Source: Escherichia phage EC1-UPM. From it: 64,000 nucleotides of DNA. Where the stretch lies: the sequence record NC_041906.1; one strand, 5' to 3'. The notes below the pieces were generated by a model. The model made no database searches. It saw nothing but the letters and a program-made list of their open reading frames with translations, and was not told where the DNA came from. The stretch's first letter is position 1, and every line of letters begins with the position of its first letter. The position numbers and the translations under genes were made by a program. Shown here one piece after another: positions 25,900-28,019 of the stretch.

Positions 25900-27133
25900 T
25901 CTGGTAGGTGGCTCAGAAGCTGCTGCTATTTGTGGTAGTGTTCATAATTTTGATGCTATTGCTTATCAGGATTCTGGACGTGTCGGCTCCATACATAGCA
26001 TTTATCATCACTGTGCTTATACTTTGGAAACTCAGTGATAAAAACGGTGGTGACAAGCCGCCAGACTAACAACAACAACAACCGAACCAGTGGATTGGAA
26101 TACTCTCCTCAGTCCATTGGTTCAATCTAAGCTAAGCGGAAAAGTTAGCTTTTTCTTGGGTGTAGAACCTGTTGAAGGAAACAAAAAATCTCACATTGAA
26201 TAGTTAATATCGTGAAGGGTTCTGTTAGAATTCTTTGAGATAGGAACTCCTATCATAACCTTTCTTAACTTAATCATTGCCGTATGGCACTGACGCTAGG
26301 GGTGGCCCCCCATCCGTCAGCTAGACTATTTTAAGAATGGGTTATCTCAGAAAATGTAAAGCAACATTCGGGTTAATCAATGGCCTCTCCCTATAGGGGC
26401 CATTTCTGAATCTTAGGCTATATCCCAAAGGTTAATATCTTTGGGATAAGGCTTCAGATCCCTTATCAAACTAACCGCTCAATGTTGAGCATTTTAATCA
26501 CATAAGCCCCTATATGGGCTGGGTTAAATGTCGGATAGCATAGCTACTTACAGCATCGAATTGTTAGGTCTTACATGTAAACTAATTCATAGGGTAAAGG
26601 GAGTCTTGTCCTCCCTCCCCTATTATGACATCCTATCAATGAGTACACTTCAAGTGGTAGGCCTGCCGCTCTTGAAATTCATCTGCAAAGCTGGGAGTGT
26701 ACTCTTTGATAGTTTTCGTAAGCGATTATGCGGTTTTTTAGAAACGAACCAATAACATAAATGCAAACGATGATGTTGTTTTGATGGCGGCGTAATAGCC
26801 TGTAAGTCAGCAAGGTCTTCCGATTCCTTGTAAACAAATTCGGCGCAGTGGCCCGCTGTGATTAATAATGGGCACACAACAGGTAAGGGCATTGACTACA
26901 CCAGATAAGTCTTCGGATGTAATGGTAAAACCATGCAGTGCTCTTTCCATTGTGACCAGCAAGACCATACAACACGCGCAATAATCTTAACCGTAGCGCA
27001 TGTTGCTGGGGCTGGATGTGGGTTAACACATGAGAGTGAATTGGTGCGACACTCCACAATACGCACCAAGTCCAGACAATATCTGAGTGACTATAAAAAC
27101 AGATGGAGCCAGGTGGAATCCCTGGCAATTATT

Positions 27134-27199
27134 TCCGGTGTAGGTACTAGTGTCGTGCACGGCATGAGTGTTCTGGTTCGAGTCCAGACGCCGGAACCA
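27134..27199 (+). ncRNA. tRNA-like element 1 (T-arm + acceptor helix + encoded CCA, non-canonical body)
   Basis: TCTGG-TTCGAGT-CCAGA T-arm, 3' CGCCGGA-A-CCA, 5' TCCGGTG complementary 7-nt strand; only about 66 nt and no canonical anticodon arm found by eye; coordinates approximate. Confidence 0.3.
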
Positions 27200-27201
27200 A
27201 T

Positions 27202-27324
27202 TACCAGTTGCACGAGATGGCTTGACATGTTCAAGTTTGGGCTAAGTGTGACACCGCTAGATTGGAGGGCTGCTGCGGTAAGCTATAGACTCCAACCGGA
27301 GGTTCGAATCCTTCACTGGTAACC
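27202..27324 (+). ncRNA. tRNA-like element 2 (T-arm + acceptor helix + encoded CCA, about 46-nt excess body)
   Basis: GGAGG-TTCGAAT-CCTTC T-arm, 3' ACTGGTA-A-CCA, perfectly complementary 5' TACCAGT starting 2 nt after element 1; about 123 nt; coordinates approximate. Confidence 0.3.
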
Positions 27325-27424
27325 AATTCAAAGTAGCATTGCACTAATCCATTCTGGAGTTCAAAGGCCAATCTTGGAGCAGTGCTACTATGAATTAGAA
27401 GAATTATGACGGGTCTGGTGAAGT

Positions 27425-27518
27425 AGATGGGGTTCGATTCCCTCCGGTGGGTAAAACCACTAGCGTGCTTGGTGTACGAATAAGACTTAATACTGGTGGT
27501 TCGATTCCATCCCCCGTT
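27425..27518 (+). ncRNA. tRNA-like region with two T-loop motifs (GGGGTTCGATTCCC and GGTGGTTCGATTCCATC)
   Basis: Two GGTTCGATTCC motifs 67 nt apart; 5' GATGGGG can pair (with G-U pairs) with 3' CCCCGTT after the second T-arm; no canonical cloverleaf found by eye. Confidence 0.25.
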
Positions 27519-27942
27519 ATCCGAAGTCGCCAGGTACTTATGGCAAACGGGTAGTAACGAACTAGTCATTCGTCAAACGCCCACCCTATTATGAGTCAGC
27601 AAGAACGCCTTCACTTAAACTTAAACAAAAAAGCTTAACGCAATAATTATGTAGGGGTATGTAAGGATTGCGAAGAAGGAGCCAGTTAAAGTCTGGCATG
27701 ACTCACCTATTTAGCAGTAACATAGTCCTGATTGCATTGCACTCTAAAGACAACACTGGTAAGACAGTCCAGTGGCTGCTATTGTATTGTTATTCCCCTC
27801 GACGGGAATTTCGCTAGTGAAGGTAACACTTAAAAATCCAAACCCACGTCTTACTACTATCGGGCTATCAACCCACAGTCGCTTAACATACTAGCGGTAG
27901 TAGTTTGACGGCCTAGCCTCGTTAGCTGCGTTAAAGCTACTA

Positions 27943-27966
27943 AGTCCCTCTTCGGAGGGACTTTTT
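27943..27966 (+). terminator. Rho-independent terminator
   Basis: GTCCCTC-ttcg-GAGGGAC hairpin followed by TTTTTT, at the end of the non-coding/RNA region. Confidence 0.55.
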
Positions 27967-28019
27967 TATTTGAGTATTAATAAGCGTAATCATGTTTAAG
28001 CACACACTAAAACCACTTT

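What the first reader, a model, noticed from the sequence alone, without database searches (positions are those of the whole stretch)
25900..28019. A 2.1 kb stretch without a convincing protein gene in an otherwise tightly packed genome
Elsewhere genes abut or overlap by a few nt. Here the ORF track shows only short mutually overlapping ORFs on both strands with no good ribosome-binding sites. The stretch is dense in stem-loops and contains the tRNA-like elements. This is unusually large for a phage unless it encodes RNA genes or cis-acting structures.
Basis: partly seen in the sequence, partly recalled or inferred. Interest (0 to 1): 0.55.

Follow-up and report, generated by a model that had tools for sequence, protein, structure and literature searches.

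The report
Headless tmRNA-like gene in phage RNA island
The gene-poor stretch of this N4-like coliphage is a small-RNA island: beside decayed tRNA-like cassettes it holds an apparently undescribed RNA, found in hundreds of unrelated enterobacterial phages, that keeps the tag-coding half of the ribosome-rescue RNA tmRNA but has no tRNA-like head.

Summary
Only the left edge (25908-26069, perhaps to 26203) looks like tiny protein genes. All other ORFs are broken in related phages. The stretch is the tRNA and small-RNA island of Gamaleyavirus (G7C-like N4 phages). This phage has lost the canonical tRNAs of its relatives by precise indels and keeps four tRNA-like remnants.

The unexpected part is a roughly 255-nt RNA gene (26710-26964). 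It has a 10-codon tmRNA-type tag frame (ANDDVVLMAA) with no start codon and the U-5/A-4 frame-setting motif. A stop-codon hairpin follows, then two pseudoknots with strong compensatory covariation and a 20-bp terminal hairpin. No tRNA-like domain is present in cis.

The same RNA occurs in 421 phage records (N4-like, lambdoid, FelixO1-like, Ackermannviridae, about 46-50 kb phages such as C1) and in 145 of 5,426 E. coli genomes. It is unannotated wherever I looked. The tag frame shows coding-type selection. A third of copies have their own sigma-70 promoter.

The RNA's 5' end is complementary to codons 3-6 of the host tmRNA tag template. This suggests, but does not show, that it docks on host tmRNA. 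It looks like a new tmRNA-derived RNA class of unknown mechanism.

The parts
25908..26069 (+). Probable small membrane-protein gene (53 aa, two hydrophobic segments). It is not part of the RNA island and trims the non-coding stretch on the left.
   Evidence: Translation. phrog_19025, E 4e-10. Intact with no indels or stops in 6 relatives.
26090..26203 (+). Possible shortened small ORF (37 aa, GTG start). Its coding status is uncertain.
   Evidence: Partial match to phrog_14773, E 2e-6. Only partly alignable in relatives.
26204..26231 (+). Sigma-70-like promoter match (TTAATA-16-TAGAAT with TG) at the start of the RNA island. This is a consensus match only.
   Evidence: The number of such matches in the region is no higher than in shuffles.
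26232..26632 (+). Highly structured leader with several strong hairpins (for example 26379-26404 and 26410-26459). Relatives carry tRNA-Ala(cgc) at the position corresponding to about 26626-26647.
   Evidence: Fold z-score -5.1. Inverted repeats. tRNA-Ala indel mapped in ShWW44 and ECBP1.
26633..26712 (+). Upstream long hairpin (H-up). Its 22-nt arms are 86% complementary, and the 3' arm ends where the tmRNA-like RNA begins. It is a candidate processing site (RNase III-like substrate).
   Evidence: Inverted repeat I1. 36 of 103 family contexts have a strong hairpin abutting the 5' end.
26710..26719 (+). 5' seed UAGUUUUCGU. It is perfectly complementary to E. coli tmRNA nt 97-106, which are tag codons 3-6.
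   Evidence: 64 of 86 family members keep at least 10 nt. Shuffle control 11/200, so suggestive only.
26701..26885 (+). Body of the headless tmRNA-like RNA: 5' stem, PK1-like pairing, tag template, stop-codon hairpin and two pseudoknots.
   Evidence: Family covariance model R1 scores 197 bits. Rfam tmRNA_permuted 33.7 bits and beta_tmRNA 20.9 bits, both below gathering threshold. Pair counts.
26763..26798 (+). Tag reading frame GCA...GCG (ANDDVVLMAA) followed by UAA UAG. There is an in-frame UAG at 26739-26741 and no start codon. The upstream sequence is AUAAAU (U-5, A-4, purine -3, pyrimidine -1).
   Evidence: Frame-setting rules from PMC2481249.
26810..26843 (+). Pseudoknot a. Stem 1 is 26810-15/26826-31 and stem 2 is 26820-23/26840-43.
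   Evidence: Compensatory changes, for example CG:47/UA:39, GC:49/AU:35, GC:63/AU:23.
26844..26873 (+). Pseudoknot b. Stem 1 is 26844-49/26855-60 and stem 2 is 26851-54/26870-73. The crossing strand UGAUUAAUAAU between the two stems is conserved, but UGAUUAAUAA was part of the retrieval pattern.
   Evidence: CG:64/GC:13/UA:9 and others. Invariant columns in A1, the alignment of BLAST-derived copies; in A2 and A3 this invariance is forced by the pattern.
26875..26964 (+). Terminal long hairpin (H-down). The roughly 20-bp stem is CACAACAGGUAAGGGCAUUG / CAGUGCUCUUUCCAUUGUG, with a variable 51-nt apical insert. It is a candidate 3' processing or stabilising element.
   Evidence: Arms covary across the family, with 93 distinct arm pairs. 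Median duplex energy is -22.8 versus -14.7 kcal/mol for shuffled partners.
27134..27199 (+). tRNA-like element 1. It has a perfect 7-bp acceptor stem, a T arm and an encoded ACCA, but only 31 nt in between (no cloverleaf).
   Evidence: Read from the sequence. T-loop repeat D1. Called by ARAGORN only at -ps85. Not found by the Rfam tRNA model.
27202..27325 (+). tRNA-like element 2. It has a perfect 7-bp acceptor stem, a T arm, an encoded ACCA and an 88-nt internal insert. It is absent as a precise cassette from phage 24-32N.
   Evidence: Cassette junction repeat AACCAATT (D3).
27325..27396 (+). Long hairpin H2 with 23-nt arms. It shares the core GCAUUG...CAGUGC with H-down.
   Evidence: Inverted repeat I2.
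27367..27520 (+). tRNA-like elements 3 and 4. The T arms are good, but the acceptor stems are poor or missing (decayed).
   Evidence: tRNA-Sec model scores 16.8 bits, E 8.7.
27648..27720 (+). Second module shared with C1-type phages (UAUGUAGGGGUAUGUA... followed by a GCCAG/CUGGC hairpin). Its end (27704-27711) is also the junction where relatives carry tRNA-Ile(aat).
   Evidence: Motif search. tRNA-Ile indel mapping.
27942..27975 (+). Intrinsic terminator (9-bp GC-rich stem, UUCG loop, U tract) that closes the island before gene 28020-28412.
   Evidence: Also picked up as the hairpin part of weak Rfam hits.

Best explanation
SHOWN. The stretch is the small-RNA island of a G7C-like N4 phage (Gamaleyavirus), not a protein-coding region. 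Its core is one RNA gene of about 255 nt (26710-26964) descended from tmRNA. It keeps the mRNA-like half: a resume-codon context, a 10-codon degradation-tag frame, a hairpin holding the stop codon and two H-type pseudoknots. It has no tRNA-like domain. It sits between two roughly 20-bp hairpins and is followed by four tRNA-like remnants and a terminator.

INFERRED, how it is made. The RNA is cut out of a longer transcript at the flanking long hairpins or tRNA-like elements. In other phages real tRNAs or a dedicated sigma-70 promoter take these places.

INFERRED, how it works. The tag frame is decoded on ribosomes, so the RNA takes part in trans-translation. Lacking its own tRNA-like head, it most likely borrows the host's. 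Its 5' end (UAGUUUUCGU) pairs with codons 3-6 of the host tmRNA tag template. This would block that template and tether the phage template next to the host tRNA-like domain and SmpB. Stalled-ribosome products would then receive the phage-specified tag (ANDDVVLMAA).

Confidence by level. I put about 0.9 on a functional tmRNA-derived RNA gene family. I put about 0.55 on the tag frame being decoded. I put about 0.25 on docking to host tmRNA through the 5' seed.
For: Identity as tmRNA-like:
- Rfam tmRNA_permuted and beta_tmRNA both hit the same spot (E 2e-4 and 8e-4), with AUAAAUGCAAACGAUGA... aligned to the resume region.
- The frame reads *KRTNNIN-ANDDVVLMAA-** with no start codon.
- Positions -5 U, -4 A, -3 purine and -1 pyrimidine fit the natural tmRNA frame-setting consensus (PMC2481249).

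Structure:
- 35 pairs in 7 helices are 95% paired, versus 39-49% when the partners are slid.
- 17 pairs carry double compensatory changes, in 181 cells.

Selection on the peptide:
- There are 39 nucleotide versions and 17 peptides, all 10 codons plus a stop (UAA, UGA or UAG).
- The last Ala uses all four GCN codons.
- Entropy by codon position is 0.76/0.61/1.21.
- The synonymous share of differing codons is 27% in the GCA frame, versus 2% and 10% in the other frames.

Independent gene:
- 34 of 103 distinct contexts have a near-consensus TTGACA-17-TAGATT or TATAGT promoter 5-12 nt upstream.
- In FelixO1-like phages the RNA lies inside the tRNA array, and neighbouring tRNAs are always on the same strand.

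Spread:
- 421 phage records of unrelated families, with taxonomy checked for five of them.
- 145 of 5,426 E. coli genomes, with no feature annotated under any of the 25 listed matches except one hypothetical protein on a plasmid.
- 4 of 185,579 species genomes hold the exact pattern.
- Family model hits on sequences not used for training score 129-209 bits.

No tRNA-like head: ARAGORN at default settings finds no tmRNA. T-loop motifs near the element occur in a minority of copies and at variable positions.

5' seed:
- A 10-nt Watson-Crick match to E. coli ssrA nt 97-106, kept at 10 nt or more in 64 of 86 members with shifting flanks.
- The phage tags differ from the host tag exactly in those codons.
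- The window holds no other target for the seed.
Against: - No transcript, processing site or tagged peptide has been observed. Everything here is sequence inference.
- A template without a tRNA-like domain cannot enter a ribosome by any known route, and no bimolecular complex of host tmRNA with a foreign template is known.
- The seed match is only marginally unusual against the whole ssrA (11 of 200 shuffles reach 10 nt). Its conservation may instead reflect the local 5' stem (GUUUU/GAAAC), which never covaries.
- The family members are related by descent, so the codon statistics are not independent samples. The retrieval pattern fixed the first 8 nt of the frame.
- Most Gamaleyaviruses replace the pseudoknot half with a different sequence, so the pseudoknots are not indispensable.
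- The match to Rfam tmRNA models is below their gathering scores (33.7 versus 47).
Confidence: 0.45

Rival explanations
1. Inhibitor or decoy. The RNA is not decoded. It blocks host trans-translation, either as an antisense RNA against the host tag template or by soaking up proteins that bind the tmRNA body (S1, SmpB, RNase R). It would be the mirror image of the TLD-only mini-tmRNA of mycobacteriophage DS6A.
For: There is no tRNA-like domain. The 5' end is complementary to the host template. There is precedent: a TLD-only molecule strongly inhibits tmRNA (PMC4131195; PMC11915505).
Against: A decoy has no need to keep a 10-codon frame, a stop codon at codon 11, or a hydrophobic ...AA/...VA end through synonymous changes.
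Confidence: 0.25
2. Ordinary two-piece tmRNA. An acceptor piece exists but went unrecognised. Candidates are tRNA-like elements 1 and 2 here, the T-arm-bearing hairpin inserts in some prophages, or a neighbouring tRNA.
For: - The best Rfam similarity is to permuted (beta-type) tmRNAs.
- ARAGORN at a lowered threshold, and once at default settings (L101), calls a permuted tmRNA.
- Elements 1 and 2 have perfect acceptor/T-arm minihelices with an encoded ACCA.
- Some hairpin inserts end in a T arm.
Against: - The 5' end of the RNA has no acceptor strand (no GGGGCUG-like sequence).
- No candidate has the G3:U70 alanine identity pair.
- Candidates differ from phage to phage and are absent from many (C1, HK633).
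- ARAGORN's acceptor pieces are weak and distant.
Confidence: 0.1
3. Graveyard. The island is decaying tRNA and tmRNA debris with no present function, kept only because it hitch-hikes with neighbouring genes.
For: The window has lost tRNA-Ala, tRNA-Ile and tRNA-Cys/Thr relative to its kin. Elements 3 and 4 are degenerate. Cassettes come and go.
Against: This fits the tRNA-like remnants but not the tmRNA-like RNA. That RNA has compensatory covariation, a maintained frame, its own promoters, and 70-97% nucleotide identity across unrelated phage families.
Confidence: 0.08
4. Hidden small protein genes. One or more of the short ORFs inside 26204-28019 (for example 26528-26755, annotated Gp51 in phage 24-32N) is a real gene.
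For: The ORF is annotated in one relative. Gene callers place many mini-ORFs here.
Against: Relatives carry indels that are not multiples of 3, stops, and a tRNA-Ala insertion within it. Differences are not biased to third codon positions, and there is no PHROG match. The ORF overlaps the conserved RNA.
Confidence: 0.05

Closest known systems
tmRNA / SsrA (Rfam RF00023, one-piece)
   Same: A resume codon GCA preceded by the U-5/A-4 context, with no start codon. A 10-residue tag AND....AA. The stop codon lies in a hairpin loop (helix 5). H-type pseudoknots follow the tag.
   Different: - No acceptor stem, T arm or CCA, so no alanine charging is possible.
- Two pseudoknots instead of three after the tag.
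- The host ssrA scores only 12.8 bits with the family model.
- It is carried by phages, not by bacterial chromosomes.
Two-piece (circularly permuted) tmRNA of Beta- and Alphaproteobacteria and cyanobacteria (RF01850, RF01849, RF01851, RF04321)
   Same: This is the best sequence match. The beta_tmRNA model aligns the tag region and the first pseudoknot. These are short coding pieces with few pseudoknots, excised by RNA-processing enzymes.
   Different: The coding piece of a true two-piece tmRNA starts with the 5' acceptor strand and pairs with an acceptor piece encoded just upstream. Neither is present here.
TLD-only mini-tmRNA of mycobacteriophage DS6A
   Same: It is a phage-borne half of a tmRNA. 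It shows that phages keep partial tmRNAs, and that such molecules can interfere with host trans-translation (PMC4131195, PMC11915505).
   Different: It is the opposite half. DS6A keeps the tRNA-like domain and lacks the tag frame. This RNA keeps the tag frame and lacks the tRNA-like domain.
Full-length phage tmRNAs (mycobacteriophage Bxz1 group, Bacillus phage G, Streptomyces BE phages)
   Same: Phage-encoded genes related to trans-translation, often found beside tRNA genes.
   Different: Those are complete, ARAGORN-detectable tmRNAs. This one escapes ARAGORN, Rfam gathering thresholds and PGAP.
Phage tRNA gene clusters
   Same: The island is homologous to the tRNA region of related Gamaleyaviruses. 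tRNA-sized cassettes are gained and lost by precise indels. In FelixO1-like phages the RNA sits inside the tRNA array.
   Different: In this phage no canonical tRNA is left.
Prophage-encoded antisense or 'anti-sRNA' regulators with 5' seeds (for example AgvB and AsxR of EHEC; recalled from memory, not checked here)
   Same: A short conserved 5'-terminal segment is complementary to an abundant host RNA.
   Different: The target would be tmRNA. The regulator itself carries a tmRNA-type coding frame. The pairing is untested.

Membership tests
tmRNA (SsrA) | tRNA-like domain: 7-bp acceptor stem with G3:U70, T arm and 3' CCA | tested here: not met
   ARAGORN at default settings finds no tmRNA in the window or in C1, HK633 or Ag3. 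Only 38/125 copies have a T-loop motif within 260 nt downstream and 26/125 within 330 nt upstream, at variable positions. tRNA-like elements 1 and 2 have C3-G70 (read).
tmRNA (SsrA) | Tag template without a start codon, beginning at a resume codon (usually GCA) with conserved U-5/A-4 upstream | tested here: met
   AUAAAU|GCA, with an in-frame UAG 8 codons upstream and no AUG. Rules taken from PMC2481249.
tmRNA (SsrA) | Tag peptide of about 10 residues with a hydrophobic ...AA-type C-terminus, under selection as a peptide | tested here: met
   17 peptides, all 10 aa, with AN[DE] at the start and L/A-M/A/V-A/V-A at the end. Third-position entropy is twice that of positions 1 and 2. 27% of codon differences are synonymous, versus 2-10% in the other frames.
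tmRNA (SsrA) | Helix 5 enclosing the stop codon, followed by H-type pseudoknots | tested here: met
   The P5-like helix has 3 pairs, all with double changes. The two pseudoknots have compensatory changes in 12 of 20 pairs.
tmRNA (SsrA) | Score at or above the Rfam gathering threshold for a tmRNA model | tested here: not met
   RF04321 scores 33.7 bits (gathering 47) and RF01850 scores 20.9 bits (gathering 84). There are no hits at gathering threshold.
tmRNA (SsrA) | Alanine charging, SmpB binding and tagging of stalled-ribosome products | not testable with these tools
   This needs biochemistry and proteomics.
Two-piece permuted tmRNA | An acceptor piece (T arm plus 3' acceptor strand plus CCA) encoded upstream, and a coding piece that starts with the complementary 5' acceptor strand | tested here: not met
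   The RNA starts UAGUUUUCG directly after a promoter or hairpin. The upstream neighbour differs between phages: tail gene, the late promoter PR' (Q-dependent), tRNA-Ile, or hairpin. ARAGORN permuted calls appear only at -ps85 or with a distant piece.
tRNA (the four T-loop elements at 27134-27520) | Cloverleaf detected by ARAGORN at default settings or by Rfam RF00005 at 29 bits or more | tested here: not met
   ARAGORN finds 0 genes. No RF00005 hit appears even at E up to 10, and the best is tRNA-Sec at 16.8 bits. The ARAGORN drawings at -ps85 have mismatched stems.
tRNA (the four T-loop elements at 27134-27520) | Acceptor stem plus T arm (GGTTCGAnTCC) plus 3' CCA | tested here: met
   Met for elements 1 and 2, which have 7-bp acceptor stems, 5-bp T stems and an encoded ACCA. 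Elements 3 and 4 have the T arm only.
   Window 26701-26885 scores 197 bits, but it was a training sequence. Independent members score 129-209 bits, and variant Gamaleyavirus copies score 86-102 bits.

The most novel reading that the evidence does not exclude
Many enterobacterial phages, both virulent and temperate, may encode a headless tmRNA that hijacks the host's ribosome-rescue machinery. In this reading the 5' seed base-pairs with the host tmRNA tag template and silences it. The phage's own seed-immune template would then sit beside the host tRNA-like domain and SmpB. Proteins from stalled ribosomes would receive a phage-chosen tag. This would be a trans-assembled, chimeric host-phage tmRNA.
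Probability: 0.2. Interest if true: 0.92.

Novelty: new variant of a known kind. Interest (0 to 1): 0.8.

Why it matters
tmRNA is thought to work only as a unit of a tRNA-like head plus a template. Known partial forms keep the head: the TLD-only RNA of phage DS6A, and the CDS-less forms in organelles and a few bacteria.

A template-only relative has been maintained by selection in hundreds of phages from at least five unrelated lineages and in about 3% of complete E. coli genomes. This implies one of two things. There may be an unknown way to feed a template to rescued ribosomes, or there may be a new class of phage RNA that manipulates ribosome rescue.

It also exposes a blind spot. ARAGORN, Rfam thresholds and PGAP all miss the RNA. 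It is left blank, or covered by spurious mini-ORFs, in most of the phage and prophage annotations I looked at.

The hypothesis is directly testable: express one small RNA and look for a new C-terminal tag.

Tried and rejected
1. Canonical tRNA or tmRNA genes. ARAGORN and Rfam at their normal thresholds find none.
2. ARAGORN at lowered thresholds. It yields 'permuted tmRNA' and odd tRNA calls whose tRNA-like pieces are weak. I rejected these as evidence for a head.
3. A helix closing the body, between the upstream CAGUGCUCUUUCC and the downstream GGUAAGAGCAUUG. I rejected this as the main structure. The downstream strand covaries with the second copy further 3' and not with the upstream copy (for example L108, L048, L037).
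4. A consistent T-loop or acceptor partner next to the element. None was found.
5. Global duplex prediction against host ssrA. It is uninformative for long RNAs: -112.8 kcal/mol observed versus -120.5 for shuffles. I replaced it with a longest-complement test.
6. Homology of the rest of the island to other phage families. Only the tmRNA-like body, and a short second module, are shared outside Gamaleyavirus.
7. Literature. No paper contains any of the five commonest tag peptides. Searches for tmRNA-like, partial tmRNA or tmRNA mimic in phages found nothing matching. The tmRNA database papers list complete or head-only phage forms, and their held supplements have no phage entries. A G7C-group preprint does not mention tRNAs or this region.
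8. An origin in a bacterial ssrA. The exact pattern occurs in only 4 of 185,579 species genomes, all Enterobacterales and probably prophages.
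Full report
**What the window is.** A 3,618-aa ORF lies on the minus strand at 28773-39629. Megablast matches PhAPEC5, St11Ph5, Bp4, ECBP1 and about 230 other records. These place the window in the G7C-like N4 phages (Schitoviridae, Gamaleyavirus; taxonomy). The finding lies at the end of the rightward gene block. It sits between a gp46-neighbour gene (25459-25899, phrog_7641) and a gp48-like gene (28020-28412, phrog_322).

**Checking the observation.**
- No ORF in 25900-28019 exceeds 129 aa.
- I mapped every ORF of note onto six related phages. The two flanking genes behave as coding sequence: differences concentrate at third positions (for example 8/1/28), indels are multiples of three, and there are no stops.
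- ORFs 26528-26755, 26933-27322, 27231-27569(-), 26650-26892(-) and 27668-27817 are interrupted in most relatives by indels that are not multiples of 3, by stops or by large cassette indels. None has a PHROG family.
It is split by a tRNA-Ala gene in ShWW44 and ECBP1 and frameshifted in PhAPEC5, UE-M6 and Mimir124.
- The left edge is an exception. ORF 25908-26069 encodes a 53-aa peptide with two hydrophobic segments. It is intact in all six relatives and matches phrog_19025. ORF 26090-26203 partly matches phrog_14773.
- The non-coding stretch is therefore real, but it starts at about 26070 or 26204.
- It folds far better than shuffled sequence, with z-scores of -5.1, -3.5 and -2.6 for three segments.
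- It holds four T-loop motifs GGTTCGAnTCC. ARAGORN and Rfam find no canonical tRNA or any other family at their normal thresholds.

**The island compared with relatives.** In related Gamaleyaviruses the same interval is 2.1-2.7 kb and carries 0-3 annotated tRNAs. Pairwise mapping shows that this phage differs by precise cassette indels:
- tRNA-Ala(cgc) of ShWW44 and ECBP1 would lie at about 26626-26647.
- tRNA-Ile(aat), with a neighbouring odd tRNA, would lie at the 27704-27711 junction.
- ECBP1 has a pseudo-tRNA(aca) after the tag region.
- Phage 24-32N lacks window 27203-27320, which is tRNA-like element 2 and is bounded by the repeat AACCAATT (D3).

What remains here:
- Elements 1 (27134-27199) and 2 (27202-27325) have perfect 7-bp acceptor stems, good T arms and an encoded ACCA. 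Their interiors are aberrant, at 31 and 88 nt.
- Elements 3 and 4 keep only the T arm.
- An intrinsic terminator at 27942-27963 closes the island.

This part is ordinary: a phage tRNA cluster in decay.

**The unexpected element.** With relaxed thresholds, two Rfam tmRNA models (tmRNA_permuted, E 2e-4; beta_tmRNA, E 8e-4) hit 26673-26844. The match is driven by AUAAAUGCAAACGAUGAUGUUGUUUUGAUGGCGGCGUAA.
- Read from GCA (26763) this is ANDDVVLMAA followed by two stops.
- An in-frame UAG lies eight codons upstream, and there is no AUG.
- These are the hallmarks of a tmRNA tag template. The E. coli tag is ANDENYALAA.
- The upstream AUAAAU gives U at -5, A at -4, a purine at -3 and a pyrimidine at -1. 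This is the pattern that sets the frame on natural tmRNAs (PMC2481249).

**Distribution.**
- A blastn search with 26600-26900 found the roughly 190-nt core at 70-97% identity in 421 phage records.
- Taxonomy is confirmed for Gamaleyavirus (Schitoviridae), Deseoctovirus C1, the lambdoid HK633 (Hendrixvirinae), Ag3 (Ackermannviridae) and Sf17 (Ounavirinae).
- It was nearly always unannotated.
- It is in 145 of 5,426 complete E. coli genomes. The listed matches carry no feature from NCBI's annotation pipeline PGAP, apart from one hypothetical protein on a plasmid.
- The host's own ssrA, present in all 5,426 genomes, is not among these matches.
- The same scan found only 4 of 185,579 bacterial species genomes, all Enterobacterales. 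The element is therefore carried by phages.
- Context varies. In HK633 it lies between the late promoter PR'/qut and the holin gene. In Sf17 it is inside the tRNA array, between tRNA-Ile and tRNA-Arg. In C1 it lies between structural genes.
- Wherever tRNA genes are within 1.2 kb, they are on the same strand as the element.

**Structure.** On 86 non-redundant copies (A2) I counted pairs for a structure read from the sequences.
- 95.2% of cells are paired, versus 39-49% when the partners are slid by 1-3 columns.
- 17 of 35 pairs show changes on both sides, in 181 cells.
- The two pseudoknots after the tag are the best supported. Examples are CG:47/UA:39, GC:49/AU:35, GC:63/AU:23, AU:75/GC:11 and CG:64/GC:13/UA:9.
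- A three-pair helix encloses the stop codon, as helix 5 does in tmRNA.
- The 5' stem and the PK1-like pairing are conserved but barely covary.
- Directly after the second pseudoknot comes a roughly 20-bp hairpin (window 26875-26894 with 26946-26964). Its arms covary (93 distinct arm pairs, median -22.8 versus -14.7 kcal/mol for shuffled partners), and its apical insert is hypervariable at 13-75 nt.
- In the window a comparable hairpin (26633-26654 with 26691-26712) ends exactly where the RNA begins.
- Among 103 distinct 5' contexts, 34 have a near-consensus sigma-70 promoter (TTGACA-17-TAGATT or TATAGT) 5-12 nt upstream. Another 36 have such a hairpin, and 33 have neither.
- A covariance model of the body (R1) finds a single copy in the window (197 bits). 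Members not used for training score 129-209 bits. The Gamaleyavirus copies with a different 3' half score 86-102 bits. E. coli ssrA scores only 12.8 bits (E 0.5), over its tag region.

**Is the frame decoded?** All 125 copies carry exactly ten codons and then a stop.
- There are 39 nucleotide versions and 17 peptides. The most frequent are ANDDVVLMAA, ANEEMYLAVA, ANDEQFLAVA, ANDNVFLAVA and ANDDLMLMAA.
- Third positions vary twice as much as first and second positions (entropy 1.21 versus 0.76 and 0.61).
- 27% of differing codons are synonymous in this frame, against 2% and 10% in the other two frames.
- The final alanine uses all four GCN codons, and the stop is UAA, UGA or UAG.
- Two caveats apply. 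The copies are related by descent, and the search pattern fixed the first eight bases.
- Even so, this is what a translated tag looks like, and a mere protein-binding decoy would not need it.

**The missing head.**
- No acceptor stem, T arm or CCA accompanies the element in any consistent way.
- ARAGORN calls a permuted tmRNA only at a lowered threshold, or with a piece hundreds of bases away across other tRNAs.
- Some hairpin inserts in prophages end in a T arm. They are not conserved, and none has the G3:U70 alanine identity pair.
- The window's minihelices 1 and 2 have C3-G70.
- The RNA therefore fails the defining test for tmRNA membership while keeping every feature of the template half.
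- The literature I could reach lists phage tmRNAs only as complete genes or as the head-only DS6A form, which inhibits host tmRNA.
- No paper contains these tag peptides.

**A lead on mechanism.** The longest Watson-Crick complement between the RNA and E. coli ssrA is 10 nt: UAGUUUUCGU at the RNA's 5' end (26710-26719) against ssrA 97-106. That target is codons 3-6 (GAC GAA AAC UA) of the host tag template.
- Against the whole ssrA this is only marginally unusual, since 11 of 200 shuffles reach 10 nt.
- Still, 64 of 86 family members keep at least 10 nt, and the flanks shift between UAGUUUUCGU, AGUUUUCGUC and the 11-nt UAGUUUUCGUC.
- The promoters place this segment at the very 5' end.
- The phage tags differ from the host tag precisely in those codons, so the phage template escapes its own seed.
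- No other target for the seed exists in the window.
- My preferred working model, marked as inference, is that the RNA docks on host tmRNA, masks its template and presents its own.
- The main rival is a pure inhibitor.

**Verdict.** The guess that the stretch holds RNA genes is right. Most of the island is an ordinary decaying tRNA cluster. Inside it lies a widespread, conserved, unannotated, template-only relative of tmRNA. Its existence is well supported and its mode of action is open.

Noticed in passing
window 27648-27720; also L003:1860-1935, L100, L116, L118, L121, L045, L053, L056, L081, L087: A second short module (UAUGUAGGGGUAUGUA.GG.UU... followed by a GCUGG/CCAGC-type hairpin) is shared between this phage and C1-type (~46-48 kb) phages. 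It always lies 200-780 nt downstream of the tmRNA-like RNA on the same strand. In C1-type phages it is followed by a terminator or by tRNA-Met. Its function is unknown.
   Followed up: partly
L129 (ECBP1) 1787-2060; L002, L130, L001 equivalents; window 26797 is the break point: Most Gamaleyaviruses keep the 5' seed and tag frame (97% identical, with synonymous changes in the last codons). From just after the stop codons they have a different, also structured, 3' half that includes a UGAUUAUCAA loop. In ECBP1 a pseudo-tRNA(aca) follows. The family model still aligns these copies full-length at 86-102 bits.
   Followed up: partly
Family-wide: upstream CAGTGCTCTTTCC directly before AGTTTTCG, and again about 250 nt downstream (for example L106, L004:1500-1512 and 1767-1779): The 13-nt 3' arm of the long hairpin occurs as a direct repeat on both sides of the RNA in many prophage copies. 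This resembles a duplication or a recombination joint, and it might explain how the module moves between unrelated phages.
   Followed up: partly
window 27325-27396: A 23-bp hairpin between tRNA-like elements 2 and 3 shares the core GCAUUG...CAGUGC with the hairpin that ends the tmRNA-like RNA. This hints at a common processing or protein-binding signal.
   Followed up: no
window 28020-28412: The gp48-like gene after the island is labelled 'anti-CRISPR protein' in two recent relatives (24-32N, Mimir124), apparently by an automated pipeline. Here it matches only PHROG families of unknown function (phrog_322).
   Followed up: no
window 27886-27973 and L005 (Ag3) 2199-2308: There are sub-threshold Rfam matches to the Salmonella sRNA candidate STnc100: 22.4 bits in the window and 33.7 bits in Ag3, against a gathering score of 47. 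In the window the match rests mostly on the terminator hairpin.
   Followed up: no
L106/L010/L039/L050, L008, L087, L062 (hairpin inserts); upstream flanks of L024, L046: In several prophage copies the variable insert of the long hairpin ends in a canonical T arm (GGGTTCGAATCCC) directly before the 3' arm. This gives a D-armless tRNA-like shape with a 15-bp 'acceptor' stem. They may be relics of tRNA genes used as processing punctuation.
   Followed up: partly
E. coli plasmids NZ_CP035313.1 (48001-48078) and NZ_JBXRYZ010000004.1: Nine of the 150 E. coli matches are on plasmids of about 95 kb, possibly phage-plasmids. The two listed are only partial matches (29% of the query at 77% identity).
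   Followed up: no
window 28493-28513 and 28743-28766: Bidirectional intrinsic terminators flank the small gene 28537-28737, at the convergence with the virion RNA polymerase gene (28773-39629, minus strand).
   Followed up: no
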